64,000 nucleotides of DNA. Source: Candidatus Omnitrophota bacterium (GTDB taxonomy: Bacteria; Omnitrophota; Gorgyraeia; Duberdicusellales; 4484-171). The translations under genes were made by a program, and so were the position numbers. Where the stretch lies: positions 161,728-225,727 of the forward strand of contig JAIPGM010000001.1 of assembly GCA_021735655.1 (NCBI GenBank). Reading direction: 5' to 3'. Shown here in pieces: positions 35,259-57,863 of this stretch; positions within the stretch are counted from its first letter, which is position 1, and each line of letters starts with the position of its first letter. Below the pieces are notes generated by a model that saw only the letters and a list, made by a program, of their open reading frames with translations, searched no databases and was not told the DNA's origin.

Positions 35259-36566
35259 TTGAAATTACCAATGAAAAGAAAGAGAATCCTGATTGTCGGA
35301 GGCGGGTTAGCCGGCTTAAGTGCTGCCTATTTTTTGGGTAAGCAGGGCCAAGCGGTATCTGTCTTTGAAAGAGAGAAAGAATGTGGAGGATTGTGCCGTT
35401 CAATAAAAAAGAATGGCTTTACCTTTGATTTTGGAGGTCATCTTCTGCACTTCCGAAGAAAGGATATTTTTCTGCTGGTCAAGAGACTTCTTAAGGGCAA
35501 TTTGCTAAAACATAAAAGAAGTGCCTGGGTTGATACTCATCAACGTTTATTGCCTTATCCGTTTCAGGCTAATCTTTTCGGTCTGCCTAAAAATATAGCT
35601 GCAGAATGCCTTCAAAACTTTATTGAGGTTAATACTAATGGACAAAAAACTGCTAAAACCAATAATTTTCGGGATTGGATAGATAGCAATTTTGGTAAAG
35701 GGATTGCCAGGCATTTTATGGTTCCTTATAACCTTAAATTTTGGAAAATGCCCTTAGAAAACCTTTCTTATGAATGGGCAGAGCGATTCGTAGTTCTTCC
35801 TTCGCGTAAAGATGTTGTTGAGGGGGCCATTGGAAGCCGAAGTAATAATTTAGGGTATAATTCCTTTTTTTGGTACCCTAAGCAAGGCGGAATAGAAGAG
35901 TTGATAAAGTCTTTTTCCGGTAGGGTGGATGATATTTTTTTAAATTCCGAAGCAGCAGAAATCGACCTAAAGAATAAAGCAGTAAGGTTTAAGAATGGTT
36001 CCAAAGAGAAATTTGACATTTTAGTTTCTACCATACCTTTACCCGAGCTTGGCAAAATTATTAAAGGATTGCCAAAAGATATTTTATCTGAATTTAGAAG
36101 ATTAAACTGGCTATCTATTTATAATATAAATCTAGGGGTAAAAGGAAATATTAGGCCAGGACAACACTGGATTTACTTTCCGAGAAAAGATAGTTCCTTT
36201 TTTAGAGTCGGATTTTTTAATAACTTTTCATCGCAGCTTGCGCCACGAGGCATGAGCTCTTTATATGCCGAAGCTTCATATCTCGGTGGTTCTGCGATAA
36301 GTAAGTCAAGGCTTGCCACGGCGATAAAAAAAGATTTAGCCAGAGCCGGAATTCTCGGAAAGGATAATTCTACTTGTTGCGAATACACGAATGATATAGA
36401 TTACGCTTATCCGATTTATGATAAGAATTATAGGACAGCCAGGCATAGAATTTTTAAGTTTTTGTCGAAAAACAAGGTTGTTTCGGTCGGCCGTTATGGC
36501 GGTTGGCAATACCTATCTATGGAGGATGTTATTTTGGAGGCCCAAGCTACGGCTAGGAGTATATAA
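35259..36566 (+). CDS. FAD-dependent oxidoreductase (amine oxidase / UDP-galactopyranose mutase-like)
   Basis: Has the N-terminal dinucleotide fold ILIVGGGLAGLSAAYFL...FERE..CGG and a C-terminal VGRYGGWQYLSMEDVI. The track uses a TTG start at 35259; an ATG at 35271 is an alternative. Confidence 0.6.
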   Translation: MKLPMKRKRILIVGGGLAGLSAAYFLGKQGQAVSVFEREKECGGLCRSIKKNGFTFDFGGHLLHFRRKDIFLLVKRLLKGNLLKHKRSAWVDTHQRLLPYPFQANLFGLPKNIAAECLQNFIEVNTNGQKTAKTNNFRDWIDSNFGKGIARHFMVPYNLKFWKMPLENLSYEWAERFVVLPSRKDVVEGAIGSRSNNLGYNSFFWYPKQGGIEELIKSFSGRVDDIFLNSEAAEIDLKNKAVRFKNGSKEKFDILVSTIPLPELGKIIKGLPKDILSEFRRLNWLSIYNINLGVKGNIRPGQHWIYFPRKDSSFFRVGFFNNFSSQLAPRGMSSLYAEASYLGGSAISKSRLATAIKKDLARAGILGKDNSTCCEYTNDIDYAYPIYDKNYRTARHRIFKFLSKNKVVSVGRYGGWQYLSMEDVILEAQATARSI

Positions 36567-37349
36567 ATGAAGTTTAGAAAAAGAATAAAAAATGTATTTT
36601 TCCATAAATCCATTTTGTGGGAGATGTCGATTAAGCAGCTTAAGGCAAAGTATTCTGGTTCTATGTTGGGTATTTGGTGGGCAGTGGCGACCCCTCTTAT
36701 TCTGGCTGTAAGTATTAATTTTATTTTTACTAATGTATTTAAGGTGGGTATTGAAAATTTTACCTTTTTTGTTTTATCAGGGATAGTCCCTTGGCTATTG
36801 TTCTCTAATGCTATAAACGAAGCCGCCGGGTCTTTTATTGCCAATTTTTCGGTATTAAGGCAGGCCATTTTTCCTCGAGAGTTTGTTCCAATGACTTCGA
36901 TTATCTCTAATTTTTTAATTTTTCTGATCGGTTTATTGATTCTGCTTCCTTTTTTTATTGTTTCTAATCCGAGGGTAATTACGGTTTTGCCGTTTCTGTT
37001 GGTAGTTTTATTTTTTTATTTATTTTTTCTTGTCGGGCTTGCTATGATTTTTTCATCTTTAAATGTTTTCTTTCGTGATGTATCCCATCTTTTAGCTATC
37101 GGGTTAATGGTTTGGTTTTGGGTTACGCCTATTTTTTACTCTTTGGATATGTTACCGGCTTCATTTCGCTGGATCTGCTTAAGTAATCCAGTTACTTACT
37201 ATGTAGTTTCTTATAGATTAATTTTGTTTGAAGCGAAGCCGTTATCCCTTCCAATTTTGTTAACTTTATTTTTTATTTCCTTTACGTCATTCATCGTTGG
37301 TTATGCCTTTTTCCTTAAAAATGAAAATAGTTTATTAAAACGAGTATGA
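36567..37349 (+). CDS. ABC-2 type polysaccharide exporter permease (Wzm/TagG-like)
   Basis: 260 aa with six hydrophobic segments and an N-terminal LKAKYSGSMLGIWWAVATPL typical of ABC-2 permeases. It overlaps the next gene by ATGA. Confidence 0.75.
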   Translation: MKFRKRIKNVFFHKSILWEMSIKQLKAKYSGSMLGIWWAVATPLILAVSINFIFTNVFKVGIENFTFFVLSGIVPWLLFSNAINEAAGSFIANFSVLRQAIFPREFVPMTSIISNFLIFLIGLLILLPFFIVSNPRVITVLPFLLVVLFFYLFFLVGLAMIFSSLNVFFRDVSHLLAIGLMVWFWVTPIFYSLDMLPASFRWICLSNPVTYYVVSYRLILFEAKPLSLPILLTLFFISFTSFIVGYAFFLKNENSLLKRV

Positions 37350-40300
37350 GGATAATAGAATTTAATAATGTTTGGGAGAAGTACCGGATTAAATTTGTAA
37401 GGGACAGGAAAGTTTCTTGGGAAGAAATTTGGGCTTTAAGCAATATAGACTTTACAGTTAATAAGGGTGAAGTTATAGGAATAATTGGTGAAAATGGTGC
37501 CGGAAAAACTACTTTATTAAAATTAATCGCTGGCATGTTTGCTCCGGATAGAGGAGATATATCTGTTCGAGGAAAGGTATCGGTATTGATGGAGCTAGGG
37601 GCTGGTTTTAATCCTGAGTTTACCGGGAGGGAAAATGTTATTCTTAATGCCCGTATCTACGGGTTAGATACAGACATAGTTGAACAGCAAATGGAGAAAA
37701 TCGTCGAATTTGCTGATATTGGTAAATTTATCGATGCCCCGGTTAAATATTATTCACAGGGCATGTATACCCGTTTAGCATTTGCTTTGGCTATATTTGT
37801 AGAGCCGGATATTCTTTTAATTGATGATATTCTATCGGTAGGCGATGCTGACGCACAAAAGAAATGTATTGATAAAGTATTCAAGTTAAAGGAATCGGGA
37901 AAGACTATTATTTTAGTAAGTCATGACATGCATATGATAAGTAGGCTGTGCGATCGAGTTATCCTTTTGGATAAAGGTAAACTTATCGACAGAGGTAATC
38001 CCGCTGAGATTATCTATCATTACCTAGAGACTGTTGGGGATAAAAGTGGTATTGCAGTTTTAGAAAAGGATAAATTAAGATTAGTATTTAATAATGGGAG
38101 AATTACTTTTAGCTACGCAGGAGTGCCCCTTACTAAAGAATTTGGTGGTTATGTGGCTTATTTTGTTTCTTCCCTTGGTAGTTGGCTTTCTTCTTTTGAT
38201 TTATTCTGGAAGATAAGCCATTTTTCAGCTAATAAAATTGTTGCTGAGGGAGAATATAAAGGTAGAGGGCCTTCTCAGGTTTGGGTTTTGGAATTTTCTG
38301 AAAGCAGATTATGTTGGCAGGTGAAGATAAAAGACAAAGATGTAAGAGATCCGCATATAGATTTATTGCTTAACCCTCAATATAAAAAATGGTTAAATTT
38401 AGACCAAGGCGGGGGTTTTCCTTCCTTTATTTCTAAATCTACTTGGCAGAATTTGGGTTTAGCTAATTTTCCCCAAGCTATGGTCGGTTTAACCGCAGAC
38501 TTGGAAGTTAAGAGTTGTCCTTCTTTTGTTTTGACCGCAGAGGATAAGGATACTCAGATTAGACTTTTCAATACAGGTTATGACCAGGAAGGACGCATTA
38601 TTCAGTTGGATTTAAAGTTAGCCGGAGACAATCTATTTTTTCTTAAAATATTTCCTGAGAAAAATATATTTGAAGAGTATATTAAAAAAGAGAAAGATAT
38701 ATTTGAAGAGAGCATTAAAAAAGTAAACCAGCAACTAGCTTTAGAGAAAGAAGCGCAACAGGTCAGATTGCGGGATTTATCAACTTTTGCTTGGGGCAAT
38801 TTTAGTCTTTTTGCTGATAAGGAGGAAAAGTCTTTAAAGCTATACTTTAAGAATAAAGAAGTCACCAAAAAAGAAGGATTCCATATATCTTTTTTGATCA
38901 ATAATATCTGGTACGATACTACTTCTGCGGATTGGCAGATAACTAAAGAAAAGGAAGTTTTCATAATTAAACTATTTTGGAAAGTGTTTGATTTTAAACA
39001 AACTTGGAAATTTTCAGTTAAGAATGGGGGGCTTCTTTGGAATTTAAATTCCATCGTAAAGAAAACCTTCAATCCAGAGATTATGAAAATCGGTTTACTA
39101 TTAATAAGTGAGTACAAAACTTTCTTTTGCGGTTATCAGCAGGAAGATTTTCCAGATAAATTCAGCTCTTGGCAGGATATGTCTCTCAAAGACCCGAAAG
39201 CAAGATGTTTTGGTTTAAGAAAACAAACATCGTTACCGGCGATTGCTTTAGATAACAATGAAAGTTTTGATTGTATTGTACAGAACAGCGATGAAGAAAA
39301 TTCCTGTCGGGTACTACAGCTAAGCCTTCCCAGGCAAAGTTTTATTCAAAAAAATACATCTTTTGGTGTTCAACTTAGCCTGCTTGAAGAGGAAAGTCCC
39401 ATTGATCATTACCTTAAACAAGAAAGACAGGACCATTTACTTAGGCAACAAGAAGCAAAAAGATTGCTTAGCGCTAAAAGTACTATATCAAAAGATAATT
39501 TTCGTTTTTTTGTTGATAAGGAAGAAAAATCTTTAAGGATATACTTTAAGGACAAAGAGATTACTAAAGGGGCCGGTCTACATAGTTCATTATGCGTTTT
39601 CGGGAAGTGGTTTCATAGGGAGGAAACTAGGTGGCAGACAAAAAAGATTTCCGATGAAGAAGTAGTTTTAATTTTAAGTTATGACTCACTACCGCTTTTA
39701 CAAATTTTTTCTCTTAGTTTCAAAAGAAAGGGTATTCTAAGAGTTAAAGTCGAAATGGAAATAAGCGAGCAGATTCATTTGTCTGATCATCATCTGAAGC
39801 TTGAGCTTCAAGATGACTATAATAATTGGGATACTGGCTATGAGCAAGGCAATTTTTTTATTGATCGATATGTGGATGAGATCGGTCCGATTAGACTAAA
39901 AGATAATAGAATTTCGAATATACTATTGAGATCAAACAATGAAAGTAAAATTCCAAAAATGCTTTTGAAAATTATTTCCCAAATTGATAGACGAATTATA
40001 AACCTTTATAAGCGAAGAAGTGAAGATGGAGAATGCGTTGGCCTTTGCTCTCCTTTGATTGTATCTAAAAAAGAAGAACTGGTTAAACCTGGAAAGTATA
40101 CTTATTTCGAAGGAGAAATCATATTTGGAAAAGAAGCTAAATTAGAAAGAGAAGCTTCTAGGGTAGATATTGTCGAGCTTAAAAAAGATGATATAAGATT
40201 TGTTTTTGATCGTGGCAGAGTTAAAATTTTCTGGAAGGAAGAAGAGTTAACTTCGGAATTAGGAATTTATACCTCATTGCGTTCAAAAGGAATCTGGCAG

Positions 40301-40813
40301 GATTCTTACCAGGCAGCTTGGGAAATAGAGCATAAAGCTAAGGAAAAAATTGTGGCAACTGGAGGTTGGCCTTACCTTCCCATTTCTCAAACATGGAAAT
40401 TAGAGTTGCTCGGCAAGAATTCAATATCTTGGCAAGTTGACATGGAGATTTACGGTGAAGTTAATTTAGAGATAGAACAGGCTAGTGTAATGATTTCTTC
40501 TAAATACAGGAATTGGGAAATTCCCAGTTTTAACAGCGGTAAATTTCTTGATGTCTATGTTAAGAATCACGATATTCTACCTTTTAGATTTTGGTCTGGG
40601 GATGCAAACAAGATAGCTGCTGTTTCAGAATGTTTTCCCTCGATAATTTTTAAAAGCGAAAGACAAGATAAAGAAATGCAGGCGGTTATAGAAAATACAG
40701 GTATTTTATATAGGGCAAGGTTGTTGCAGTATCAAAGTACAAGTAATAATGCAATTTTGCCAGGTAAATATCCATACTTTAGGGGGATGATAGAAATTGA
40801 GACTAGGAAGTAA
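37346..40813 (+). CDS. ABC exporter ATP-binding protein (Wzt/TagH-like) with ~900-aa C-terminal extension of four repeated uncharacterised domains
   Basis: The N-terminal ~235 aa have Walker A GENGAGKTT, the Wzt-type signature YSQGMYTRLAFA and Walker B LLIDDILSVGD. The tail holds four paralogous ~200-235-aa modules. Confidence 0.8.
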   Translation: MRIIEFNNVWEKYRIKFVRDRKVSWEEIWALSNIDFTVNKGEVIGIIGENGAGKTTLLKLIAGMFAPDRGDISVRGKVSVLMELGAGFNPEFTGRENVILNARIYGLDTDIVEQQMEKIVEFADIGKFIDAPVKYYSQGMYTRLAFALAIFVEPDILLIDDILSVGDADAQKKCIDKVFKLKESGKTIILVSHDMHMISRLCDRVILLDKGKLIDRGNPAEIIYHYLETVGDKSGIAVLEKDKLRLVFNNGRITFSYAGVPLTKEFGGYVAYFVSSLGSWLSSFDLFWKISHFSANKIVAEGEYKGRGPSQVWVLEFSESRLCWQVKIKDKDVRDPHIDLLLNPQYKKWLNLDQGGGFPSFISKSTWQNLGLANFPQAMVGLTADLEVKSCPSFVLTAEDKDTQIRLFNTGYDQEGRIIQLDLKLAGDNLFFLKIFPEKNIFEEYIKKEKDIFEESIKKVNQQLALEKEAQQVRLRDLSTFAWGNFSLFADKEEKSLKLYFKNKEVTKKEGFHISFLINNIWYDTTSADWQITKEKEVFIIKLFWKVFDFKQTWKFSVKNGGLLWNLNSIVKKTFNPEIMKIGLLLISEYKTFFCGYQQEDFPDKFSSWQDMSLKDPKARCFGLRKQTSLPAIALDNNESFDCIVQNSDEENSCRVLQLSLPRQSFIQKNTSFGVQLSLLEEESPIDHYLKQERQDHLLRQQEAKRLLSAKSTISKDNFRFFVDKEEKSLRIYFKDKEITKGAGLHSSLCVFGKWFHREETRWQTKKISDEEVVLILSYDSLPLLQIFSLSFKRKGILRVKVEMEISEQIHLSDHHLKLELQDDYNNWDTGYEQGNFFIDRYVDEIGPIRLKDNRISNILLRSNNESKIPKMLLKIISQIDRRIINLYKRRSEDGECVGLCSPLIVSKKEELVKPGKYTYFEGEIIFGKEAKLEREASRVDIVELKKDDIRFVFDRGRVKIFWKEEELTSELGIYTSLRSKGIWQDSYQAAWEIEHKAKEKIVATGGWPYLPISQTWKLELLGKNSISWQVDMEIYGEVNLEIEQASVMISSKYRNWEIPSFNSGKFLDVYVKNHDILPFRFWSGDANKIAAVSECFPSIIFKSERQDKEMQAVIENTGILYRARLLQYQSTSNNAILPGKYPYFRGMIEIETRK
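38060..40810 (+). repeat. Four tandem copies of an uncharacterised ~200-aa protein domain (also at about 40935-41600 and 50265-50906 in two radical SAM genes)
   Basis: Copies start at about 38060, 38786, 39491 and 40178. The alignable cores are LRLVFNNGRITFSYAGVPLTKEFG..., LKLYFKNKEVTKKEGFHISF..W.DT..ADWQI...QTWKFSV..GGLLWNL, LRIYFKDKEITKGAGLHSSL and VKIFWKEEELTSELGIYTSL..W.DS..AAWEI...QTWKLEL...SISWQV. Confidence 0.75.
38657..38722 (+). repeat. In-frame tandem duplication of a 33-nt unit (EKNIFEEYIKK / EKDIFEESIKK)
   Basis: Unit 1 (38657-38689) and unit 2 (38690-38722) differ at 2 of 11 residues. They sit in the linker between domain copies 1 and 2. Confidence 0.8.
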
Positions 40814-47020: not shown

Positions 47021-47839
47021 TTGAATATGGCGGGTAAAGTGGGTGCTATCGATTTTCAATTATTTTTAAGAAAAATCAGCCTTGAGCGTTTTTTTCAAAG
47101 TTTTTATTATTTTAAATGGTTGGAATACCCTTTAGTCTACAATAACCTTGAACTAAAAGCAGGTGAACAGTATCTCGATATCGGTAGTGGAAAGTCCATT
47201 TTTCCTCTATTTGTCGTAGCGAAAAATAACTGTAACGTGCACGTATTTGATGATCAGTCCATTATAAAAGACAGTATTACTTATTATCAGAGCAATATTA
47301 GAAAGATGGGGTTATGCAATATTTCTGGAAAAAATTTCTTGATTCACGAAGCTACAGAGAAAGGACAGCTCGATTTTCCTGATAATTACTTTGATAGAGT
47401 TTCTTGTATTTCGGTATTAGAGCATATTAAGGGCAATGGTGATAGTGTAATGATGCAGGAAATATCAAGAATTTTAAAAAAAGGCGGGAGGGCTGTGATA
47501 ACTTTTCCGTTTAATGGCAAGGATTATATAGAAGAAGATAACCCAGAAGGGGTAGGATATTTCCAGCGGAAGTATAGTGTAGCGGCGATTAAAGAGCGGA
47601 TAATTGATCCAGCCAATTTAAAGGTTAAGAAGGTTATATATTTTGGAGAACGTTATATAAGTTTTGGGGAACAATACTTGCAGAATAAATTTAGAAAAAT
47701 AAATTGGCTCATACCTTTATTCGCGCCTATTTTATGGAGGGTGTGCCATTATTATGAAGGTGAATATCGCAATTTTTATGAGCGAGCAATAGATAAAAAA
47801 GGTACTGGCGTAGCGTGTATTGTTTTTGATAAGATTTGA
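47021..47839 (+). CDS. Class I SAM-dependent methyltransferase
   Basis: Motif I YLDIGSGKS, then ISVLEHI and LKKGGRAVITFP. The track start is a TTG at 47021; an ATG at 47027 is an alternative. Confidence 0.7.
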   Translation: MNMAGKVGAIDFQLFLRKISLERFFQSFYYFKWLEYPLVYNNLELKAGEQYLDIGSGKSIFPLFVVAKNNCNVHVFDDQSIIKDSITYYQSNIRKMGLCNISGKNFLIHEATEKGQLDFPDNYFDRVSCISVLEHIKGNGDSVMMQEISRILKKGGRAVITFPFNGKDYIEEDNPEGVGYFQRKYSVAAIKERIIDPANLKVKKVIYFGERYISFGEQYLQNKFRKINWLIPLFAPILWRVCHYYEGEYRNFYERAIDKKGTGVACIVFDKI

Positions 47840-47864: not shown

Positions 47865-48737
47865 ATGCTGACTTTTCCTAAATATCTTTCAATCCAAACT
47901 ACTTCTCTATGCAATGCTTCTTGTGTATTTTGTCCCTATAAAGATATAAAAGATGTAAGGTTCAAGACAATAATGGATAGAGGCCTTTATGAAAAAGTTA
48001 TTAATGAATGCAGTAACCATAAAGATATTGAATGCATTATAGTTTACATGAATAACGAGCCCTTAACTGATCCTTGCATAGTTGAGAGAATAAATTATGC
48101 CAAAGATAAAGTTCCTTGGGCTAGTGTGCATATCTTGACCAATGGAGCCTTACTTAGCGATGACCTGGCTGATAAACTTATTGATTCTCGTCTAGACTGG
48201 ATCGGGGTAAGCTTTCATGGGATCAGAAAAGAAACTATAGAGCGGGCAATGGGCATTCCTTATGAGATCAGCTTGAAGAGAATAACCAATTTTATCGAAA
48301 AAGCAAAAGCGAAGAAAAATATAAAGAACTATTTTATGCTAACTTTTTTGCGCCATGTATATTTGACTCCTCAAGAGCGGGAAGAGGCTATTAGTTTTTG
48401 GAGAAAACTGGGGATAGAAAGAATAAGCTATTTTGACGGGCCCATATCTCGGGCCAGCAATGTAACTAATTTACCAAAAGTCTACCATCAAGGCAAGATC
48501 AGTGGATGTAATTCTATCTGGGCTGATGAGATGCTTCATGTGGTAGAGGATGGTAAGGTTATTTTGTGCTGCATGGATTGGCGAAGAGAAGTAATTTTAG
48601 GCGACCTAAACAAACAAAGCATCCATGAAATATGGAATGGCAAAAGAAGAAAGATTTGGGATATGATTCGTGGAACAGGAGAGGTTCCTGAAGGATTTTT
48701 GTGCCGCAGGTGCGAAGAGGCTAAGCAAGAGATTTAA
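47865..48737 (+). CDS. Radical SAM protein with C-terminal SPASM/twitch-like Cys cluster
   Basis: CNASCVFC at 47910-47933, and C-terminal CNSIW...LCCMDW...FLCRRCEEA. Confidence 0.75.
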   Translation: MLTFPKYLSIQTTSLCNASCVFCPYKDIKDVRFKTIMDRGLYEKVINECSNHKDIECIIVYMNNEPLTDPCIVERINYAKDKVPWASVHILTNGALLSDDLADKLIDSRLDWIGVSFHGIRKETIERAMGIPYEISLKRITNFIEKAKAKKNIKNYFMLTFLRHVYLTPQEREEAISFWRKLGIERISYFDGPISRASNVTNLPKVYHQGKISGCNSIWADEMLHVVEDGKVILCCMDWRREVILGDLNKQSIHEIWNGKRRKIWDMIRGTGEVPEGFLCRRCEEAKQEI

Positions 48738-48740
48738 AGG

Positions 48741-50909: not shown

Positions 50910-50919
50910 AAATTTACAT

Positions 50920-53900
50920 ATGAATCTAACAGATAAAATTTTATTAGTGGGTCTTGCTCCTTGGGGAGTAGATACGCCACCCCTAGCCTTAGCTTGTTTA
51001 AGTACCTCTTTGAGGAATGCAAATATTAGCACTGAAGTATTTGATATGAATATTGAGCTTTACAATGCCGTTAATGAGCAAAGTAAATATTTGTGGAGTA
51101 TGAATTATTCTCATTGGTGGCGAGAGCCAGAAAGATATTCTGATATTAGAAAGGAATTAGATGTTTACATAGAACCTTTAATAAAGAAAATTTTAAGTTT
51201 TAAGCATAAGATAGTTGGCTTTTCACTTTCTACTAATTGCTCTGACCTTTTGTTGGAGGAGATAGTAAAAAGAATAAAAACTAGCGATCCCGATAAGGTA
51301 ATAATTCTAGGTGGTGTTTCAATTTCAATAAATGAGCAGAGAAATGATTTAATTAGGAAGTTAAGGACGCAGATAGATTACTGTGTGATTGGAGAAGGAG
51401 AAGAGGTACTTGTCGAATTGGTAAAGAAAATAGCTAGCAATAAGCTAGAAGATATAGGTCGATTGCCAGGCATAATTAAGAAGGGTGAGTTTGAAGGAGT
51501 TAAACAGAGGGCAGAGATCAAAGATTTTAATTCGCTGCCATTTCCTACATTTGAAGAATTCAATTTAAAAAAATATAAAGCACCCGTGAGCTTACCTATG
51601 GAATTTTCTCGTGGCTGCGTAGGTAGTTGTCCTTTCTGCGATTTTAAAAGCGTTTCTTCTGCCTTTAAGTCAAAAGCACCTTATTATATTATAAGCCAGA
51701 TAAAATTCTATAAAGAAAAATACAATATTATTCATATGAGCCTATCTGACCCAGCAGTAAATGGAGATATTAGGGTTCTTGAGCAAATATGTGATTTATT
51801 AATCGAAGCTAACCTTTCTGTAAATATAAATTCTCTGGCAATTCCCCGCAAGGAAATGACCTTAGAACTATTAGAGAGAATGAAGAAAGCAGGTTTTTAT
51901 CGTTTGGAGTATGGTCTAGAGAGCGGTTCGAATAAGATTCTCAAAGCAATGAGGAAAATATTTACTGTCGAAATTGCCGAGAAAGTTATCCGAGATACTT
52001 ATCAAGCAGGGATAAAAACATATCTCTATTTAATTGTGGGTTATCCACAGGAGACAGAGGATGATCTCAATCAGACCAAAGATTTTTTGAATAGAAACCG
52101 TCAGTATATTTCCATGATAAAGTCTATCAACCCTCTTTATGTAATGGCCGGTTCAGAGATATTTTGCAATCCCGATAAATATCAAGTCACATTACCGGCT
52201 AAAGATAGTGACAAGAGATGGTTTATTGGTGATAAGAATACATATTCTTTGCGAAAAGCCCGGATATTTGAACTTAAAAAAGTAGTTGCTAGTTTAAATA
52301 TTCCCTTTACCGAAGAGGCGGAATCTTTAGAGTTTACTGGAAACTCTTTAAATAAACAACAAGGAATCGTTGTAGGTGGAGGCAATCCATACGATAAAGA
52401 TGAGTCAACTACAGAAAATAAAATTATGTCTAGAGGATATGCAGAACAAAAAACAGATAAATATAGAGATAGTTTTTTATTAATTAATTTGCCCCCTTGG
52501 GGTCAAGAAAATCCTCATATCGGAGTAGGCTATGTGTGTAGCTATCTTCGTCATAAAGGCTTTAAGCCATCGGTCTTAGACTTGAATAAGAAATTTTATT
52601 TGAGTCAGCCAAATTTTCAAATGCTCTGGCATGTAGAAAATAAAAACTTTTGGTCAAATCAAGATTCTTTTCCTTTGATTTTAAAATTATTTAAGAAGGA
52701 AATAGATAAGGCAATAAATGATATTTTGTCTTCAGGTTGCAGCCTATTAGGTTTCTCGGTAGTTGACCCTAAAGAAAAAATAACTATAGAGTTCATTAGG
52801 AGAATAAAACGTAGGGATAAAAGTAAAAAGATAATTTTAGGTGGTCCGGCAACTTCTACTTATGAGCAGAGAAAGATATTTTTGGATAATGTTGAGGAAG
52901 AGATAGATACTTTTGTGATCGGCGAAGGCGAGCAAACTTTGTTTAAGGTAGTAGACCGAATTTTAAAGAAAAAAGAGCTTAAAGGTATCGAGGGTTGTTG
53001 CAGCCGGGATAATGGTAAGTGGGTTTGTCGAGAAAGCGGTGAGATTGTTTCTTTAGATAAGATTCCTTTCCCGACCTATGAGGAATTTGATTTGAGTCTA
53101 TACGGTAAATCTTTCCTTGTTGAATGGTCAAGAGGCTGTAGGAGTAAATGCGCTTTTTGCAAAAATTATCGGCTTTTTTCTTCTTATCGGTCAAAGTCAG
53201 CTGAATCGGTTATGAAGGAATTGAGATATCATAAGCAAAAGTATAATGTAGATGAATTCACTGTAGTCGATAATATTTTGAATGGTGATCTAAATACCTT
53301 GAATGATATTTGCGACAGGATAATAAAGGAAAATCTTCAAATTAGATGGACTGGGCAAATTGCCCCCCGCAAAGATATGAATTTTGAATATTTCCAAAAA
53401 ATGAAGCAGGCCGGATGTTTTAAACTTCAAATTGGCCTTGAGTCTGGTTCGAACAAGGTGTTAAAGTTAATGCATAAGAGCTTTACGGCAGAGATTTCTG
53501 AAAAAAATATAATTTTTGCTAAGAAAGCAGGCATTGAGACAGAAATTTTTACAATGATTGGTTTTCCCGGGGAGGCTGAGAAAGATTTTCAAGAAACTTA
53601 CGATTTTATAAAAAGAAATGCAAAATATCTGGATACCATAAAATCGATAAACACCTTACATCTAATAGCCGGAACTGAAATCTATGAGCAGAGAGAGCGT
53701 TTTAAAATAAAGCCTTTACCTCAAGAAAACTGGCATTATTTATGGGAAACTTATGAGGGAAATACATACAAGGTACGGGAAGAAAGAGCTAAGCGTATTC
53801 TAGGGTTAGCTTGCGATCTTAAGATTAAAGTTATGGAGACTAATATTATAGAGGGAAAAGAGCAAAAAGTTTTGCTTGAAAATCTCGGCTTATTGGAAAA

Positions 53901-54078
53901 ATCCCTGAATTCTTTGCAAGAGTTACCAGAAAAAGAAGAATTTAAGCTAAAAAGAAGAAATATTAATAAATGGTTAATCCTGATTTTTGTTTCTTTTTAC
54001 ACATTTTTTTATATTATTTATTTTTGGGTATTTATGATTTTTAGAAATAAAGTTCTCTTGGGGGGAAGAAAAAAGTGA
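50920..54078 (+). CDS. Double-module B12-binding radical SAM fusion protein with C-terminal transmembrane helix
   Basis: Module 1 (50920 to about 52360) has CVGSCPFC at 51616-51639. Module 2 (about 52473-53900) has CRSKCAFC at 53137-53160. Both open with a B12-domain-like LxxPPWG...P.lG motif. The C-terminal WLILIFVSFYTFFYIIYFWVFMIF is a TM helix. Confidence 0.8.
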   Translation: MNLTDKILLVGLAPWGVDTPPLALACLSTSLRNANISTEVFDMNIELYNAVNEQSKYLWSMNYSHWWREPERYSDIRKELDVYIEPLIKKILSFKHKIVGFSLSTNCSDLLLEEIVKRIKTSDPDKVIILGGVSISINEQRNDLIRKLRTQIDYCVIGEGEEVLVELVKKIASNKLEDIGRLPGIIKKGEFEGVKQRAEIKDFNSLPFPTFEEFNLKKYKAPVSLPMEFSRGCVGSCPFCDFKSVSSAFKSKAPYYIISQIKFYKEKYNIIHMSLSDPAVNGDIRVLEQICDLLIEANLSVNINSLAIPRKEMTLELLERMKKAGFYRLEYGLESGSNKILKAMRKIFTVEIAEKVIRDTYQAGIKTYLYLIVGYPQETEDDLNQTKDFLNRNRQYISMIKSINPLYVMAGSEIFCNPDKYQVTLPAKDSDKRWFIGDKNTYSLRKARIFELKKVVASLNIPFTEEAESLEFTGNSLNKQQGIVVGGGNPYDKDESTTENKIMSRGYAEQKTDKYRDSFLLINLPPWGQENPHIGVGYVCSYLRHKGFKPSVLDLNKKFYLSQPNFQMLWHVENKNFWSNQDSFPLILKLFKKEIDKAINDILSSGCSLLGFSVVDPKEKITIEFIRRIKRRDKSKKIILGGPATSTYEQRKIFLDNVEEEIDTFVIGEGEQTLFKVVDRILKKKELKGIEGCCSRDNGKWVCRESGEIVSLDKIPFPTYEEFDLSLYGKSFLVEWSRGCRSKCAFCKNYRLFSSYRSKSAESVMKELRYHKQKYNVDEFTVVDNILNGDLNTLNDICDRIIKENLQIRWTGQIAPRKDMNFEYFQKMKQAGCFKLQIGLESGSNKVLKLMHKSFTAEISEKNIIFAKKAGIETEIFTMIGFPGEAEKDFQETYDFIKRNAKYLDTIKSINTLHLIAGTEIYEQRERFKIKPLPQENWHYLWETYEGNTYKVREERAKRILGLACDLKIKVMETNIIEGKEQKVLLENLGLLEKSLNSLQELPEKEEFKLKRRNINKWLILIFVSFYTFFYIIYFWVFMIFRNKVLLGGRKK

Positions 54079-55235
54079 AAATACTAATGGTGCACCCCCA
54101 TGATTTATTTGATCGGTCTGAACCTTGGACGATAAGAATTAAGAGTATAGCCAGAGAATTTGAGAAAAAGGATCACAAGGTTAAATTGTGTTATTTCCCT
54201 TTAACTATAAATGAAAAACATTATCCTAAAAATATGGGATCTATAGAACTGATCCCCTTAGATCGAACACCTTCTCCGAAAGCTTTTATTATAAATATAA
54301 TTAAACTTATAAAATTGTGTAAATGGGCGAATATCGTCCACTTGCAGAAATGTCATCATTACTCTTCAATCCCTACGGTAATTGCTGCCTATATTGCCGC
54401 TAAGCCTCTTCATTATGACTGGGATGATTGGGAGGAGAAAATTTGGTATGAATCCTGCGGTAGAGGTTTACATTCCCGTTTCATCGGTTTTTCATTTAAA
54501 GTATTAGAGAGATGGCTTCCGGTTTTAGCTGATTCAACTTCTTGTGCTAGCAAGTGTTTGAGAAACTTAACTTATAAGTTTGGAGTAAAAAAAGAATACA
54601 TATTTGATACTCCGGTAGGAGCTGATCTAGATAAATTTAAGCCTAGCCTAAATGGTCAATGGGTTAAGAAAAAATTCAATATTAGTTCAGATTTAGTTTT
54701 ATATATTGGTCAGTTACACGGAGCCCAATACGTAGATATATTTATAAAAGCGGCCAATATCCTTTCTTCTGAGCGGCCGGATGTCAAATTTATGATTGTT
54801 GGTGAAGGTTTTTCGGAACATTCATTGAAACAGCTTACTTATGATTTAGGCTTAAAAGATAAAGTTATTTTTACCGGGAGCATACCTTATGGTGATATTC
54901 CCGATTATGTTAATGCTGCATCAGTATGCGTGGCACCCTTTAAAGATACTGAGGTAACTCGTTGCAAGAGTCCTTTAAAAATTGCAGAGTATTTAGCCAG
55001 CGGTAAACCAATAGTGGCAAGTTTAGTAGGTGAAGTAAGAAATATGATCGGCGGCTGTGGAGTTTTAGTCAAGCCGGGGGATCATCATTCTTTAGCTGAA
55101 GGAATTCTGCGCCTAGTTGAAGATAAAGAATTAAGAGGTAAATTATCTAAGCATGCACGTAAGCGGGCTGAGAGAAAGTATAACTGGACCAACACGGCAG
55201 ATTCCTTAATTTGCGCCTACAAAAAGATACTGTAA
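54075..55235 (+). CDS. GT4 family glycosyltransferase
   Basis: 386 aa with a GT-B type C-terminal domain (YIGQLHG...VGEG...SPLKIAEYLASGKPIVAS). The GTG start overlaps the upstream TGA. Confidence 0.8.
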   Translation: MKILMVHPHDLFDRSEPWTIRIKSIAREFEKKDHKVKLCYFPLTINEKHYPKNMGSIELIPLDRTPSPKAFIINIIKLIKLCKWANIVHLQKCHHYSSIPTVIAAYIAAKPLHYDWDDWEEKIWYESCGRGLHSRFIGFSFKVLERWLPVLADSTSCASKCLRNLTYKFGVKKEYIFDTPVGADLDKFKPSLNGQWVKKKFNISSDLVLYIGQLHGAQYVDIFIKAANILSSERPDVKFMIVGEGFSEHSLKQLTYDLGLKDKVIFTGSIPYGDIPDYVNAASVCVAPFKDTEVTRCKSPLKIAEYLASGKPIVASLVGEVRNMIGGCGVLVKPGDHHSLAEGILRLVEDKELRGKLSKHARKRAERKYNWTNTADSLICAYKKIL

Positions 55236-56335
55236 TGAAGTTTGTATTTATAACTCGAGAAGGCCTTGAGAATCCGGGAGCCAGAACCCGTTGTTATAGT
55301 TTATCGGCTAAACTAAGGCAAAAAGGACTAAGGGCTGATGTTTTTTCTTTTTCCGATAGGTTGGGTGCTAAATCAGGAAAAGATGAAATTGATTTTACTT
55401 TTTTTGAGAAGTTTAAGCATATTTATAAGGGATTTAAGTTACTCTCAAAAGAAAAAGATAAGCCGATCTTTATCGTAAATCGCTTTAATTATCATACAAT
55501 TCCGGCATGGCTAGTTTCTAAGCTTAAAAAGATACCTTTGGTGTTTGATATGGATGATTGGGAGGCAAGAGAAGATATAGGGTATTATTTTGGACTATTC
55601 CCTAAGTCAAAAGCCGAATACCTTGCTGGTTTATTTGCAAAGAACAGCATGTTTTGTATTGCGGCTAGTAATTATTTAAGAGATTATCTTTTGCAGTTTA
55701 ACAAGAAGGTTTATTATCTGCCCACCGGAGTAGATACTGATAAATTTAAGTCCCTTGGTCGTAAAGACAAGAAAGATTTTATTTTTTCATGGCATGGTTC
55801 GGTGAATAGGATAGAGGTTTTAAAATATATAAAATTTATCATTGATTGCTTTTTGGCTATTCGTAAAAAATATCCTTTTATTAAGCTGGTTATTGCCGGA
55901 GACGGTATTTTCGGAAATGAATTGCGAAAATTAGTCAAAGCTTCGAGTTCTAACAGTATAATATATGCTGGGTGGATTAATTATCGGAGTATTCCCAGTC
56001 ATCTAGATAGTATTGATGTTGGATTGGTACCGCTTTTGGATAAGACCCGGTTTAATTTATCAAAAAGCCCGGTTAAATTATTTGAATATATGGCTATGGC
56101 CAAGCCAACCATCTCTAGTAATATCGGAGAAGCAGCCAGTATTATTGATAATGGCGAGAATGGATTTTTAGCTGGAACCGAGGAAGAATTTTTAGAAAGG
56201 ATGGAAGCTCTGATTAAAGATAAAGATTTGGGTAAAAAGATAGGGGATAATGCTCGTAAAACAGTAGAGAAGCAATACTCTTTAGATGTCGTTAGTGAAT
56301 CAGCCTATGAAATATTGGCTGGTATCAATGCTTAG
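55235..56335 (+). CDS. GT4 family glycosyltransferase
   Basis: MKFVFITREG...SWHGSVN...IAGDG...SPVKLFEYMAMAKPTISS. The track begins at a TTG (55211). The ATG at 55235 forms a TAATG overlap with the upstream stop and is the more likely start. Confidence 0.8.
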   Translation: MKFVFITREGLENPGARTRCYSLSAKLRQKGLRADVFSFSDRLGAKSGKDEIDFTFFEKFKHIYKGFKLLSKEKDKPIFIVNRFNYHTIPAWLVSKLKKIPLVFDMDDWEAREDIGYYFGLFPKSKAEYLAGLFAKNSMFCIAASNYLRDYLLQFNKKVYYLPTGVDTDKFKSLGRKDKKDFIFSWHGSVNRIEVLKYIKFIIDCFLAIRKKYPFIKLVIAGDGIFGNELRKLVKASSSNSIIYAGWINYRSIPSHLDSIDVGLVPLLDKTRFNLSKSPVKLFEYMAMAKPTISSNIGEAASIIDNGENGFLAGTEEEFLERMEALIKDKDLGKKIGDNARKTVEKQYSLDVVSESAYEILAGINA

Positions 56336-56380
56336 AATTTTCACAGTTGCTATAACTTAAGGAATAAAGGAGAATTTGAT

Positions 56381-57058
56381 TTGGGTTATCTTGTTGAGAC
56401 GCATCAACTAACTAAAATATTTAAGCCACACAAAGGCATTGGTGAGAAGCTTAGAGGCTCAGCAGCTCGAACCGAGGTAAAGGCTGTAGATAGAGTTAGT
56501 TTTTCTTTAGAAGCAGGTTCCACCATGGCTATTATGGGTCCTAATGCTGCCGGAAAAACAACTCTTTTAAAACTAATCGCTTCTTTAATTATTCCAACCA
56601 GTGGTCGGATTTCGGTTAAAGGTACAATTGGTTTGGTTACCGGGGAAGAGAGGAGTTTTTACTGGCGCTTGAGCGGTCAGCAGAATTTAGAGTTTTTTGC
56701 TGCTTTGTACGGTTTGGGAAAATCCGAAGCCAAGAGGCGAATCCAGCAGTTGGTTGAATTGCTGGGCATCGAGGATATGAGTGATGTTCTGGTTCAAGAG
56801 TATTCCTCGGGATACAAACAGAGGCTGGCTATTGCTAGAGGATTATTGCATGATCCGGATATCTTGCTTTTAGATGAACCCACTAAAAATTTGGATTCTT
56901 CTCACGCTGAACATTTAAGAATTTTTATAAGAGAAAACTTAGGTAAAGAAAGCAAAAAGACAGTTATTTTTACTAGTCATAACTTAGAGGAAGCTTCGTT
57001 TTTAGCGAATAAATTAGCAGTAATGGATAAGGGTTGCCTAAGGCAACAGGATAGTTGA
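56381..57058 (+). CDS. ABC transporter ATP-binding protein (ABC-2 subfamily)
   Basis: Walker A GPNAAGKTT, signature YSSGYKQRLAIA, Walker B LLLDEPTKNLD. The TTG start is preceded by AAAGGAG at 56366-56372. Confidence 0.85.
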   Translation: MGYLVETHQLTKIFKPHKGIGEKLRGSAARTEVKAVDRVSFSLEAGSTMAIMGPNAAGKTTLLKLIASLIIPTSGRISVKGTIGLVTGEERSFYWRLSGQQNLEFFAALYGLGKSEAKRRIQQLVELLGIEDMSDVLVQEYSSGYKQRLAIARGLLHDPDILLLDEPTKNLDSSHAEHLRIFIRENLGKESKKTVIFTSHNLEEASFLANKLAVMDKGCLRQQDS

Positions 57059-57059
57059 T

Positions 57060-57863
57060 ATGGGAAAAATTATAGCATTTATTAAGAAAGATTTTCAAAT
57101 TTTTTTAAGTTATAAGCTATTTTTCATGTTGCGTTGGGCGGGTATTGTTATACCGGTTGTTACTTTTTATTTTATATCTAAGTTTATCGACCAGCAGGGG
57201 AATATTGCCTTCAGCGAATATCGAGGAGGGTACTTCCCTTTTGTGGTTATAGGCTTGTCAGTATACGGCTATCTTCTTGTCTTGTTGCGTTCAGCTTCTG
57301 AAGGTATGCGGCAGGAGCAGATGTACGGAACTTTAGAGGTTATTTTTGCTACCCCGGTAAAAAGTAGTATCGTAGCAATTTCGGCAGGTTTGTGGAATAG
57401 TCTTATTGCTTTAGTTGCTATGGTGGTATGTTTGGTAACCGGAATTTTATTGTTTAAGGAGGGCATTGTTGCTTTGGATTGGTTTGCCTTATTTTTAACT
57501 TTAATTATGATTGTCGTTAATTTTTTAAGCATAGGTATATTGGCTGCTGCAGTAATAGTGGTTTGTAAAAGAGGTGATCCGATTGCTTGGTTTGCTAGTA
57601 CATTCTTTGCTTTTTTTGGCGGAGTTTATTATCCAGTGAGTGTTTTGCCTAAAGGGTTTCAGAAAATATCTCAGTTTTTACCGATCACTTATGCTGTCAG
57701 GGCTTTGCGTAAAGTTATACTTGCCGGGGCAACATCTGTCGAGATAACTAACGAGTTAGTTGTGTTGTTTATTTGTGCAGTATGTTTGTTGCCTTTATCT
57801 TTAATTATTTTTAGTTATGCTGTGCGGCGAGCTAAGATGAGCGGTAGCTTATCTTATTATTAG
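57060..57863 (+). CDS. ABC-2 type transporter permease
   Basis: 267 aa with six hydrophobic segments, immediately downstream of its ATPase. Confidence 0.75.
   Translation: MGKIIAFIKKDFQIFLSYKLFFMLRWAGIVIPVVTFYFISKFIDQQGNIAFSEYRGGYFPFVVIGLSVYGYLLVLLRSASEGMRQEQMYGTLEVIFATPVKSSIVAISAGLWNSLIALVAMVVCLVTGILLFKEGIVALDWFALFLTLIMIVVNFLSIGILAAAVIVVCKRGDPIAWFASTFFAFFGGVYYPVSVLPKGFQKISQFLPITYAVRALRKVILAGATSVEITNELVVLFICAVCLLPLSLIIFSYAVRRAKMSGSLSYY

What the first reader, a model, noticed from the sequence alone, without database searches (positions are those of the whole stretch)
35259..57863. A glycan-export cluster with eight radical SAM modules in five ORFs, which is not a standard O-antigen or teichoic-acid layout
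Seen in sequence: a co-directional, overlapping gene string. It runs FAD oxidoreductase, Wzm/Wzt-like exporter, class B rSAM, triple rSAM-SPASM, SAM methyltransferase, rSAM-SPASM, class B rSAM, double class B rSAM, two GT4 glycosyltransferases and a second ABC-2 exporter. A HemN-like rSAM sits just beyond on the opposite strand. There are no nucleotide-sugar synthesis genes, no polymerase or ligase, and no obvious RiPP precursor within this stretch. Inference: the product is probably a heavily radical-modified (for example C-methylated or cross-linked) glycoconjugate, lipid or exported polymer of unknown type.
Basis: inference. Interest (0 to 1): 0.6.

Follow-up and report, generated by a model that had tools for sequence, protein, structure and literature searches.

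The report
Radical-SAM glycan export cassette, Omnitrophota
This is a conserved gene cassette of the uncultured phylum Omnitrophota that joins an O-antigen-type sugar-polymer exporter to eight radical SAM enzyme modules through a shared, previously undescribed sugar-binding-like domain, which suggests a surface polysaccharide remodelled by radical chemistry, something not yet described.

Summary
Window 35259-57863 is one co-directional, overlapping gene string. It carries eight radical SAM (rSAM) modules in five ORFs, all with intact CX3CX2C motifs.

- The "FAD oxidoreductase" is a UDP-galactopyranose mutase homologue, so a nucleotide-sugar gene is present.
- A missing polymerase is normal for Wzm/Wzt pathways.
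- The second ABC-2 exporter and the HemW-like gene are not conserved parts of the cassette.

New findings:
- A ~210-aa domain ("X") has no Pfam match. It occurs four times on the Wzt ATPase tail, once at the N-terminus of the first class-B-type rSAM, and once at the C-terminus of the second.
- X defines a rare family: 633 of 1.84 billion cluster representatives. It is fused to Wzt ATPases, class-B rSAMs, SPASM rSAMs and GT-C glycosyltransferases. Every member that carries an organism name is Omnitrophota.
- In 26 of 26 related loci the gene after Wzt begins with X. In 23 of 23 loci, SPASM and class-B rSAMs follow.

Best reading: a lipid-linked, probably galactofuranose-containing glycan is tailored by rSAM enzymes before Wzm/Wzt export, with X as the shared glycan-recognition module. 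The chemistry is inferred, not shown.

The parts
35259..36566 (+). UDP-galactopyranose mutase homologue (long, eukaryote-like type); FAD enzyme that probably makes a UDP-furanose donor
   Evidence: Pfam Amino_oxidase/NAD_binding_8. PDB T. cruzi UGM 4dsg E 4.5e-46 over aa 8-418, and A. fumigatus UGM E 2e-37. Motifs GGH, PYPFQxN, PYNxKxW, FFR..F.N.S and GRxGxWxY are aligned. Found within 3 kb upstream of Wzt in 15 of 25 related loci.
36567..37349 (+). Wzm-type ABC-2 permease
   Evidence: Pfam ABC2_membrane. Best NCBIfam hit is the galactan export permease Wzm/RfbD, below cutoff. Seven hydrophobic segments. Present in 25 of 25 related loci.
37346..40813 (+). Wzt-type ABC ATPase (aa 1-235) with a 920-aa tail of four X domains separated by charged linkers
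   Evidence: The nucleotide-binding domain matches A. aeolicus Wzt 8dku (E 5.9e-63) over aa 13-241 only, then TarH/TagH and the mycobacterial RfbE. No Wzt_C Pfam hit. Four X copies.
38060..38608 (+). X domain copy 1 (Wzt aa 239-421)
   Evidence: jackhmmer within the window
38804..39439 (+). X domain copy 2 (Wzt aa 487-698)
39500..40126 (+). X domain copy 3 (Wzt aa 719-927)
40181..40798 (+). X domain copy 4 (Wzt aa 946-1151); this is the copy that was modelled
40797..43163 (+). X domain (aa 46-290) fused to an AprD4/HpnJ-like class-B-type rSAM; the most conserved enzyme of the cassette
40932..41666 (+). X domain copy 5 (N-terminus of the first rSAM)
43160..47014 (+). Three paralogous rSAM-SPASM modules in one polypeptide (CX3CX2C at aa 36, 538, 947); no N-terminal RRE
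   Evidence: Pfam 3x Radical_SAM + 3x SPASM. Motifs. Modules are 35-43% identical to each other. A fused triple is found in 9 related loci at 52-66% identity, and three separate genes in others. Weak PDB hits to BlsE, MoaA, PqqE and BtrN.
47021..47839 (+). Class I SAM-dependent methyltransferase
   Evidence: Pfam Methyltransf_11/31/23/25. A counterpart at the same position was found only in L011.
47865..48737 (+). Short rSAM with a SPASM/twitch-type C-terminus
   Evidence: Pfam. In related loci it is fused to the following class-B rSAM, for example L004 843 aa and L011 1032 aa.
48741..50909 (+). Class-B (B12-binding) rSAM with a C-terminal X domain (aa 512-699)
   Evidence: Pfam B12-binding + Radical_SAM. 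X copy. Best NCBIfam hits are the PhpK and RiPP C-methyltransferase subfamilies, all below cutoff.
50274..50837 (+). X domain copy 6 (C-terminus of the second class-B rSAM)
50920..54078 (+). Two class-B rSAM modules in one polypeptide, paralogous to the core of 48741-50909
   Evidence: Pfam 2x B12-binding + 2x Radical_SAM. CX3CX2C at aa 233 and 740. 32-34% identity among the three methylase-like cores.
54075..55235 (+). GT4 glycosyltransferase (conserved member of the cassette)
   Evidence: Pfam Glycos_transf_1. Homologue in 19 related loci.
55211..56335 (+). Second GT4 glycosyltransferase (start 55211 or 55235)
   Evidence: Pfam. The Logan gene call starts at window position 55235.
56381..57863 (+). 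DrrAB-like ABC-2 exporter (ATPase + permease); adjacent but not a conserved part of the cassette
   Evidence: NCBIfam drrA/drrB-like, below cutoffs. The permease has no homologue in related loci.

Best explanation
The region about 35259-56335 is an Omnitrophota-specific version of the ABC-transporter-dependent (Wzm/Wzt) pathway for a cell-surface glycan.

Proposed sequence of events:
1. A UGM homologue supplies a UDP-furanose, probably UDP-Galf.
2. GT4 enzymes build the glycan on a polyprenol carrier at the cytoplasmic face. In related genomes the cassette starts with a WecA-type GlcNAc-1-P transferase.
3. Before export, soluble cytoplasmic radical SAM enzymes remodel the sugars. These are an AprD4/HpnJ-like enzyme (dehydration, deoxygenation or ring rearrangement), three SPASM-type modules (oxidation, epimerisation or C-C/C-O chemistry) and three methylase-like class-B modules (C-methylation).
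4. A new ~210-aa galactose-mutarotase-like beta-sandwich domain (X) acts as the common glycan-recognition module. It tethers two of the rSAM enzymes to the substrate. In four tandem copies it replaces the usual jelly-roll carbohydrate-binding domain of Wzt, so that tailoring and export read the same polymer.

Shown: gene content, conservation, domain sharing and fusions, and folds.
Inferred: the substrate being a lipid-linked glycan, X binding it, and every chemical step.
For: (1) Exporter identity. The Wzt nucleotide-binding domain is closest to the A. aeolicus O-antigen Wzt, then TarH/TagH and the mycobacterial galactan exporter RfbE. Wzm is an ABC-2 permease.

(2) The FAD protein is a UGM homologue with its motifs aligned.

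(4) X is a real family with 633 representatives. Every fusion partner found deals with glycans or is an rSAM. Among the top 150 these are 84 Wzt ATPases, 5 class-B rSAMs, 6 SPASM rSAMs, 2 single polypeptides of Wzt-ATPase + X + SPASM rSAM, and GT-C (PMT_2) glycosyltransferases.

(5) Synteny across non-redundant related loci, nearly all labelled Omnitrophota. Wzm is upstream in 25 of 25. The ORF after Wzt starts with X in 26 of 26: 20 are X-class-B fusions, and the others are split versions or an X-SPASM fusion. SPASM and class-B rSAMs are present in 23 of 23. GT4 is present in 15 of 23. A GT4 + WecA-like PF00953 + UGM block lies upstream in 9 loci.

(7) No enzyme has a transmembrane segment or an N-terminal RRE, which is consistent with cytoplasmic action on a membrane-tethered glycan.

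(8) The precedent for exporter-side recognition is that Wzt carbohydrate-binding domains bind a modified terminal sugar and are needed for export (PMC9445017).
Against: - Nothing here demonstrates binding or chemistry.
- The window has no initiating phosphoglycosyl transferase next to the cassette. The only one in the window is a Bac_transf domain inside the giant ORF.
- The methylase-like class-B modules score best against RiPP and P-methyltransferase subfamilies. TIGR03975 gives 280.1 bits against a cutoff of 281.85, but that score is summed over two modules.
- A PqqD + rSAM-SPASM pair lies 5.4 kb downstream of the reported region (about 7 kb beyond the last cassette gene).
- Ten related loci, though not the window, carry a conserved ~40-aa ORF ending in FPG[GAS] between the last rSAM and the GT4. 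Its role is unknown.
- The taxon labels come from MAG records. The genome scan found only loci that match two peptide patterns, so how widespread the cassette is within the phylum is not known.
Confidence: 0.6

Rival explanations
1. The rSAM enzymes do not act on the polymer. They make an unusual nucleotide-sugar or small-molecule precursor (for example a deoxy, branched or carbocyclic sugar), which the GT4s then incorporate. X binds a mono- or oligosaccharide rather than the polymer.
For: AprD4, BtrN, BlsE and GenK-type enzymes all act on small sugar substrates. Aldose epimerases with the X-like fold bind monosaccharides.
Against: X sits in 2-6 tandem copies on the exporter ATPase among the related loci, and up to 8 elsewhere in the family. 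It is also fused to GT-C enzymes and to single Wzt+X+SPASM polypeptides. This is hard to explain unless X recognises the transported glycan itself.
Confidence: 0.14
2. The substrate is a membrane lipid or a glycolipid head group (hopanoid-like, membrane-spanning lipid or calditol-like chemistry), and Wzm/Wzt flips or exports the modified lipid.
For: HpnJ is the best NCBIfam hit of the first rSAM, and 'lipid biosynthesis B12-binding/radical SAM' appears among the hits. rSAM-SPASM and class-B enzymes modify GDGT-type lipids, and Omnitrophota carry Hbs/Mss homologues (10.1101/2023.10.20.563219). ABC-2/ABCA-type transporters move lipids.
Against: All lipid-family scores are far below cutoffs. The cassette consistently carries UGM, GT4s and, in 9 loci, a WecA-like gene. 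The accessory domain has a carbohydrate-associated fold, not a hydrophobic tunnel. No lipid-synthesis genes are in the cassette.
Confidence: 0.1
3. It is a RiPP-type peptide maturation and export cluster: SPASM and class-B rSAM enzymes modify a ribosomal peptide, GT4s glycosylate it, and an ABC transporter exports it.
For: SPASM and class-B rSAMs with an ABC exporter are typical of RiPP clusters. There are near-cutoff hits to the RiPP C-methyltransferase subfamily. PqqD + rSAM-SPASM lies downstream. A conserved ~40-aa ORF is present in 10 related loci.
Against: There is no free small ORF in the window's cassette and no homologue of the 40-aa ORF there. No rSAM module has room for an N-terminal RRE, because CX3CX2C lies within about 40 residues of each SPASM module's start. 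The fused accessory domain is not an RRE. The exporter is of the Wzm/Wzt polysaccharide type. PqqD and its rSAM are absent from related loci. The 40-aa ORF looks like a single-pass membrane peptide.
Confidence: 0.07
4. It is a chance juxtaposition of unrelated rSAM genes with a polysaccharide exporter in one MAG, or an assembly chimera.
For: The source is a metagenome assembly.
Against: The same order appears in two independent assemblies and in about 30 other species-level genomes. The exporter and the enzymes share a domain, and fusion proteins link them.
Confidence: 0.01

Closest known systems
ABC-transporter-dependent O-polysaccharide pathway with a Wzt carbohydrate-binding domain (E. coli O9a WbdD/Wzt; Aquifex aeolicus WzmWzt; PMC9445017, PMC3482155)
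   Same: Wzm permease + Wzt ATPase. The Wzt C-terminus carries an extra all-beta domain. GTs work in the cytoplasm, no Wzy/Wzx is used, and the glycan is chemically modified before export.
   Different: The tail is not the ~150-aa jelly-roll CBD (no PF14524 hit). It is four copies of a ~210-aa galactose-mutarotase-like domain. The same domain is also on the modifying enzymes. The modifiers are radical SAM enzymes rather than a kinase/methyltransferase cap enzyme.
Galactofuranose-containing glycans exported by Wzm/Wzt (Klebsiella D-galactan I; mycobacterial galactan with Glf, WecA-type priming and RfbD/RfbE). The pathway details are from general knowledge.
   Same: A UGM gene sits next to wzm-wzt. 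Related loci have a WecA-like initiating transferase. The NCBIfam galactan-export models are among the best hits, and the nucleotide-binding domain hits mycobacterial RfbE.
   Different: The UGM is of the long, eukaryote-like type. Scores are below the equivalog cutoffs. Those pathways have no GlfT-type GT2 here and no rSAM enzymes.
AprD4 (radical SAM 1,2-diol dehydratase of apramycin biosynthesis, PDB 6fd2)
   Different: NCBIfam AprD4 score is 107 against a cutoff of 500. The window protein has an extra N-terminal X domain and long C-terminal helices. Its context is a polymer-export cassette, not an aminoglycoside cluster.
HpnJ (hopanoid-associated class-B rSAM, proposed ring contraction of BHT-glucosamine; PMC9204698), with archaeal calditol synthase as an analogy
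   Same: Best NCBIfam sequence match of the first rSAM. The precedent is radical remodelling of a sugar already attached to a membrane lipid.
   Different: 235.9 bits against a cutoff of 577.6. There are no hopanoid genes. The protein carries the X domain.
RiPP clusters with SPASM and class-B rSAM maturases
   Same: The same enzyme superfamilies, multiple rSAMs per cluster and a nearby ABC exporter.
   Different: No precursor, RRE or protease. The exporter is Wzm/Wzt. The accessory domain has a carbohydrate-type fold.
Galactose-mutarotase-like 'supersandwich' domains of glycoside hydrolases, polysaccharide lyases, glycan phosphorylases and aldose 1-epimerases
   Different: 5-13% sequence identity, no Pfam match, and new fusion partners: an ABC ATPase, rSAMs and GT-C enzymes.

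Membership tests
Wzm/Wzt ABC-transporter-dependent glycan export | ABC-2 permease (Wzm) encoded next to the ATPase | tested here: met
   PF01061 hit and seven hydrophobic segments
Wzm/Wzt ABC-transporter-dependent glycan export | Wzt/TagH-type nucleotide-binding domain | tested here: met
   A. aeolicus Wzt E 5.9e-63, TarH 8e-54, RfbE 2e-38. The NCBIfam TagH/Wzt models hit but stay below their cutoffs.
Wzm/Wzt ABC-transporter-dependent glycan export | Jelly-roll Wzt C-terminal carbohydrate-binding domain (Pfam Wzt_C). This is optional: only cap-dependent systems have it. | tested here: not met
   No Wzt_C hit. The PDB alignment to full-length A. aeolicus Wzt stops at aa 241. The tail is 4x domain X.
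Wzm/Wzt ABC-transporter-dependent glycan export | Polyprenol-phosphate initiating transferase (WecA/WbaP type) | tested here: inconclusive
   None inside 35259-57863. A PF00953 gene lies just upstream in 9 related loci. A Bac_transf domain sits inside the giant ORF of the window.
Wzm/Wzt ABC-transporter-dependent glycan export | Cytoplasmic glycosyltransferases; no Wzy/Wzx | tested here: met
   Two GT4 genes and no polymerase or flippase Pfam hit in the string
UDP-galactopyranose mutase | FAD Rossmann fold plus UGM-specific motifs over the full length | tested here: met
   4dsg E 4.5e-46 over aa 8-418 with the motifs aligned. NCBIfam TIGR00031 (the short bacterial type) gives only 64.7 bits against a cutoff of 303.75.
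UDP-galactopyranose mutase | Pyranose-furanose mutase activity and substrate identity | not testable with these tools
   Needs an enzyme assay
Radical SAM superfamily | CX3CX2C cluster motif in each module | tested here: met
   Eight of eight modules; Pfam PF04055
Class B (cobalamin-binding) rSAM | N-terminal B12-binding (Rossmann) domain | tested here: met
   PF02310 in 48741-50909 and twice in 50920-54078. For 40797-43163 the Pfam hit is absent in the window protein but present in many homologues, and the model has the Rossmann domain. Cobalamin use itself was not tested, and AprD4 does not use it (general knowledge).
AprD4 family (NF033070) | Score above the curated cutoff | tested here: not met
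HpnJ (TIGR03471) | Score above the curated cutoff; hopanoid gene context | tested here: not met
   235.9 bits against 577.6. No hpn genes in the window.
SPASM/twitch rSAM | C-terminal Cys-rich auxiliary-cluster domain | tested here: met
   PF13186 three times in 43160-47014 and once in 47865-48737. Cys counts vary by module.
RiPP biosynthetic cluster | Precursor peptide gene | tested here: not met
   No free ORF of 25-149 aa inside the string. The 40-aa ORF of related loci is absent from the window.
RiPP biosynthetic cluster | RRE/PqqD domain fused to or next to the maturases | tested here: not met
   No PqqD Pfam hit in the cassette proteins. The only PqqD is at 63268, paired with its own rSAM, and is not conserved.
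Any Pfam family for domain X | Hit at or below E = 10 | tested here: not met
   No hit for five of the six copies; one copy has a chance-level hit at E 0.11
Galactose-mutarotase-like fold | Structural superposition with known members | tested here: met
Galactose-mutarotase-like fold | Carbohydrate binding | not testable with these tools
   Needs ITC, a glycan array or a co-structure

The most novel reading that the evidence does not exclude
Omnitrophota make a major surface polysaccharide whose sugars are extensively rewritten by up to eight or more radical SAM modules (deoxygenation or ring rearrangement, C-methylation, oxidation/epimerisation or cross-links) while still lipid-linked. A new carbohydrate-binding domain family physically couples this radical tailoring to Wzm/Wzt export. 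This would be the first radical-SAM-tailored exported polysaccharide pathway, and a new class of Wzt substrate-recognition domain.
Probability: 0.35. Interest if true: 0.8.

Novelty: new variant of a known kind. Interest (0 to 1): 0.64.

Why it matters
Bacterial polysaccharide diversity is thought to come from nucleotide-sugar pathways, glycosyltransferases and simple polar tailoring such as acetyl, methyl or phosphate groups. A conserved cassette that puts five to nine radical SAM modules between the exporter and the glycosyltransferases points to a different source of diversity. So does the fact that the exporter and these enzymes are fitted with the same recognition domain. Together they suggest radical, C-H-activating chemistry acting on a polymer.

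This would widen the reaction space of glycan biosynthesis and give rSAM enzymology a new substrate class. It would also add a new type of Wzt recognition domain. Finally, it would describe the cell surface of a widespread, uncultured and possibly host-dependent phylum.

The idea can be tested directly. The cassette is compact (about 21 kb) and the enzymes have no predicted transmembrane segments. Domain X can be expressed on its own.

Tried and rejected
- The word-indexed homology search with the six-copy X alignment found nothing. The exhaustive profile search was needed.
An alignment of Wzt tails worked.
- Six exact-sequence look-ups of window proteins near the 3' end failed, so the sequence beyond 64000 could not be read. 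The PqqD-associated rSAM therefore stays truncated.
- The afdb50 fold library was not available.
- The promoter and terminator scans were no better than shuffles and were not used.
- One-to-one orthology between the three SPASM modules and the three separate SPASM genes of other loci was rejected. All the separate genes match module 2 best.
- The giant ORF and the Opp importer were considered as parts of the system and rejected, because they are not conserved neighbours.
- The HemW-like gene was rejected as a member. It passes the HemW cutoff and is not consistently linked.
- The second ABC-2 exporter was rejected as a core member.
- Literature searches for rSAM together with Wzt, O-antigen or ABC-transporter-dependent glycans found nothing relevant.


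Full report
**1. What is there**

The window comes from a Candidatus Omnitrophota metagenome-assembled genome. The Wzt protein is identical to an NCBI record on a 341-kb contig, and the same gene order is on an independent Logan assembly.

From 35259 to 57863 the genes are co-directional and overlap or lie at most 45 bp apart. An AT-rich 143-bp gap lies in front of the first gene. All eight radical SAM modules in the five ORFs keep the CX3CX2C motif.

By sequence, the eight modules fall into four groups:
- the catalytic core of 40797-43163, which is distinct from the rest (about 25% identity to the others);
- three paralogous SPASM modules in 43160-47014, 35-43% identical to each other;
- one short SPASM/twitch enzyme at 47865-48737;
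- three paralogous methylase-like class-B cores (48741-50909 and both halves of 50920-54078), 32-34% identical to each other.

None of the enzymes has a predicted transmembrane segment.

**2. Corrections to the finding**

The "FAD oxidoreductase" is a homologue of the long, eukaryote-type UDP-galactopyranose mutase. It matches T. cruzi UGM at E 4.5e-46 over aa 8-418, with the motifs GGH, PYPFQxN, PYNxKxW, FFR..F.N.S and GRxGxWxY aligned. The cluster therefore does encode a nucleotide-sugar enzyme.

The lack of a polymerase or ligase is expected for an ABC-transporter-dependent pathway (established knowledge).

The second ABC-2 exporter (DrrAB-like), the HemW-like gene (which passes the HemW cutoff) and everything downstream have no counterparts in related loci. 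The conserved unit in the window is therefore about 35259-56335.

**3. The shared domain**

The 920-aa tail of Wzt is not the known jelly-roll carbohydrate-binding domain. Pfam finds nothing there. The alignment to full-length A. aeolicus Wzt stops at residue 241.

A search within the window shows a ~210-aa unit, domain X, repeated four times in this tail. It occurs once more at the N-terminus of the first rSAM protein and once at the C-terminus of the class-B rSAM at 48741-50909. X has no Pfam match even at E<=10.

A profile of the six copies, scored against 1.84 billion cluster representatives, finds 633 proteins at E<=1e-3 and 298 at E<=1e-30. X is thus a real but rare family.

**4. Fusion partners of X**

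Among the best 150 family members:
- 84 are Wzt-type ATPases with 2-8 X copies;
- 52 have X only, and many of these are fragments;
- 5 are class-B rSAM + X;
- 6 are SPASM rSAM + X;
- 1 is class-B + SPASM + X;
- 2 are single polypeptides of Wzt ATPase + X + SPASM rSAM.

Pfam confirms the two Wzt-X-SPASM fusions. It also reveals PMT_2 (GT-C) glycosyltransferase + X proteins. Every member that carries an organism name is Omnitrophota. Every partner identified is therefore either a glycan-handling protein or a radical SAM enzyme.

**5. Synteny**

Three neighbourhoods with precomputed Pfam annotation and 31 loci from species-representative genomes show the same cassette (maps, counts). Nearly all of these loci are labelled Omnitrophota.
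- Wzm is directly upstream in 25 of 25 loci.
- The ORF after Wzt starts with X in 26 of 26 loci that have at least 3 kb downstream. Twenty are X-class-B fusions like the window's. Four are a stand-alone X ORF followed by a class-B rSAM. One is an X-SPASM fusion (L021) and one is a split Wzt (L025).
- All 23 loci with at least 8 kb downstream carry both SPASM and class-B rSAM genes.
- 15 of those 23 carry a GT4.
- The UGM homologue lies within 3 kb upstream in 15 of 25 loci.
- In 9 loci the cassette opens with GT4, then a WecA-like PF00953 transferase, then UGM.

Modules are shuffled by fusion and fission. There are three SPASM genes in some loci against one triple protein in others. The short SPASM enzyme is fused to the following class-B enzyme in several loci. 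Class-B+SPASM and class-B+class-B fusions also occur.

The first rSAM protein is the best-conserved enzyme. The 120 listed homologues are 46-65% identical, and there are 794 hits at E<=1e-20. Its N-terminal 46 residues are conserved, which supports the TTG start at 40797.

**6. What the enzymes resemble**

No rSAM protein reaches any NCBIfam equivalog cutoff.

The SPASM modules have only weak PDB relatives: BlsE, MoaA, PqqE and BtrN. Their rSAM cores start at the N-terminus, which leaves no room for an RRE.

The three methylase-like cores score best against the PhpK, Sden_1168 and RiPP C-methyltransferase subfamilies.

**7. Mechanism proposed**

The exporter identity, the UGM, the GT4s, the WecA-like gene in relatives, the carbohydrate-type fold of X and its fusion partners all point the same way. 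The substrate is most likely a polyprenol-linked glycan, probably containing galactofuranose, assembled and tailored on the cytoplasmic face and then exported by Wzm/Wzt.

In characterised systems the Wzt C-terminal domain binds a modified terminal sugar and is required for export (PMC9445017). Here that role would fall to tandem X domains. Because two of the tailoring enzymes carry the same domain, X most likely recognises a feature of the glycan common to the tailoring and export steps.

These steps are inferred. The gene content, the conservation, the domain sharing and the folds are shown.

**8. Rivals**

- *Precursor synthesis rather than polymer tailoring* fits the small-sugar substrates of AprD4, BtrN and BlsE. 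It does not explain X on the exporter and on GT-C enzymes.
- *A lipid substrate* fits the HpnJ and ladderane-type hits and known rSAM lipid chemistry in these phyla. It does not explain the UGM, the GT4s, the WecA-like gene or the fold of X.
- *A RiPP reading* fits the enzyme superfamilies and the PqqD + rSAM-SPASM pair at 63268 onward. The cassette, however, has no precursor and no RRE, it uses a polysaccharide-type exporter, and the PqqD pair is not conserved.

One observation remains open. Ten related loci carry a conserved ~40-aa ORF between the last rSAM gene and the GT4. It has a basic N-terminus, a hydrophobic stretch and a C-terminal [FL]FPG[GAS]. The window and the other loci with the fused triple SPASM protein lack it.

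**9. Novelty**

Four full-text searches combining radical SAM with Wzt, O-antigen, ABC-transporter-dependent or polysaccharide-cluster terms found no description. A search combining Omnitrophota with radical SAM returned papers about giant proteins, lipids and secondary metabolites.

The exporter half is a known kind of system. The rSAM load, the new domain and the way it links tailoring to export are new. I therefore rate this a new variant of a known kind, with a substantial chance that the product is a new type of radical-tailored polysaccharide.

Noticed in passing
window 56-29311 (+): A single 9751-aa ORF carries scattered enzyme domains. Positions within the ORF: GT1 aa 242-300, GH77 aa 868-1147 and Bac_transf aa 4225-4404. 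Approximate positions for the rest: ELFV dehydrogenase aa 5680-5880, PLP decarboxylase aa 7545-7737, GH100 aa 9000-9147 and GT1 aa 9470-9600 (which scanned aa 4982-9751). A few hydrophobic segments lie near aa 4222-4785 and 9216. It fits the giant multi-enzyme proteins reported for Omnitrophota (10.64898/2026.06.07.730766). It holds the only initiating phosphoglycosyl-transferase domain in the window, but it is not a conserved neighbour of the cassette.
   Followed up: partly
window 29352-35115 (+): An Opp/Dpp-type peptide ABC importer (binding protein, two permeases, two ATPases) lies between the giant ORF and the cassette. It is absent from related loci.
   Followed up: partly
window 63268-64000 (+): A PqqD-family protein (97 aa) is followed, with an overlapping stop and start (TAATG), by another rSAM (CNWQCKHC) that the window end cuts off. 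The best NCBIfam hit is the ACGX-system rSAM/SPASM, far below cutoff. This may be a separate RiPP-like pair. It is preceded by an alpha/beta hydrolase, a GT4 and an AlkP-type phosphodiesterase (59338-63264).
   Followed up: partly
L002 18416-18535; L009 11243-11368; L010 20238-20357; L012 17623-17745; L013 17647-17769; L015 17650-17772; L020 16415-16549; L026 19376-19495; L027 8360-8479; L034 6626-6748: A conserved ~40-aa ORF always sits between the last rSAM gene and the GT4. It has a basic N-terminus, about 20 hydrophobic residues, an LKK/LKG stretch and an invariant C-terminal [FL]FPG[GAS]. It has no counterpart in the window. It could be a small membrane subunit or a peptide substrate; this is unresolved.
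   Followed up: partly
proteins P0016 (1856 aa) and P0124 (1217 aa), from other Omnitrophota contigs: These are single polypeptides that join a Wzt ABC ATPase, X repeats and an rSAM-SPASM enzyme. An exporter ATPase fused to a radical enzyme is very unusual.
   Followed up: partly
proteins P0019, P0109, P0120: X domains are also fused to the C-terminus of PMT_2 (GT-C) membrane glycosyltransferases. This suggests the same glycan may be recognised again on the outer side of the membrane.
   Followed up: no
protein P0261 (1236 aa): A homologue of the first rSAM carries intein/LAGLIDADG Pfam domains (PF14528, PF14890).
   Followed up: no
window 38609-38803 and 39440-39499 (Wzt aa about 422-486 and 699-718): The X repeats of Wzt are separated by charged, probably helical linkers, for example EKNIFEEYIKKEKDIFEESIKKVNQQLALEKEAQQVRLRDL. 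The X-rSAM model also has a long helix between X and the catalytic part (aa 215-239). These may be spacers or coiled coils. X copy number varies from 2 to 8 across Wzt homologues.
   Followed up: no
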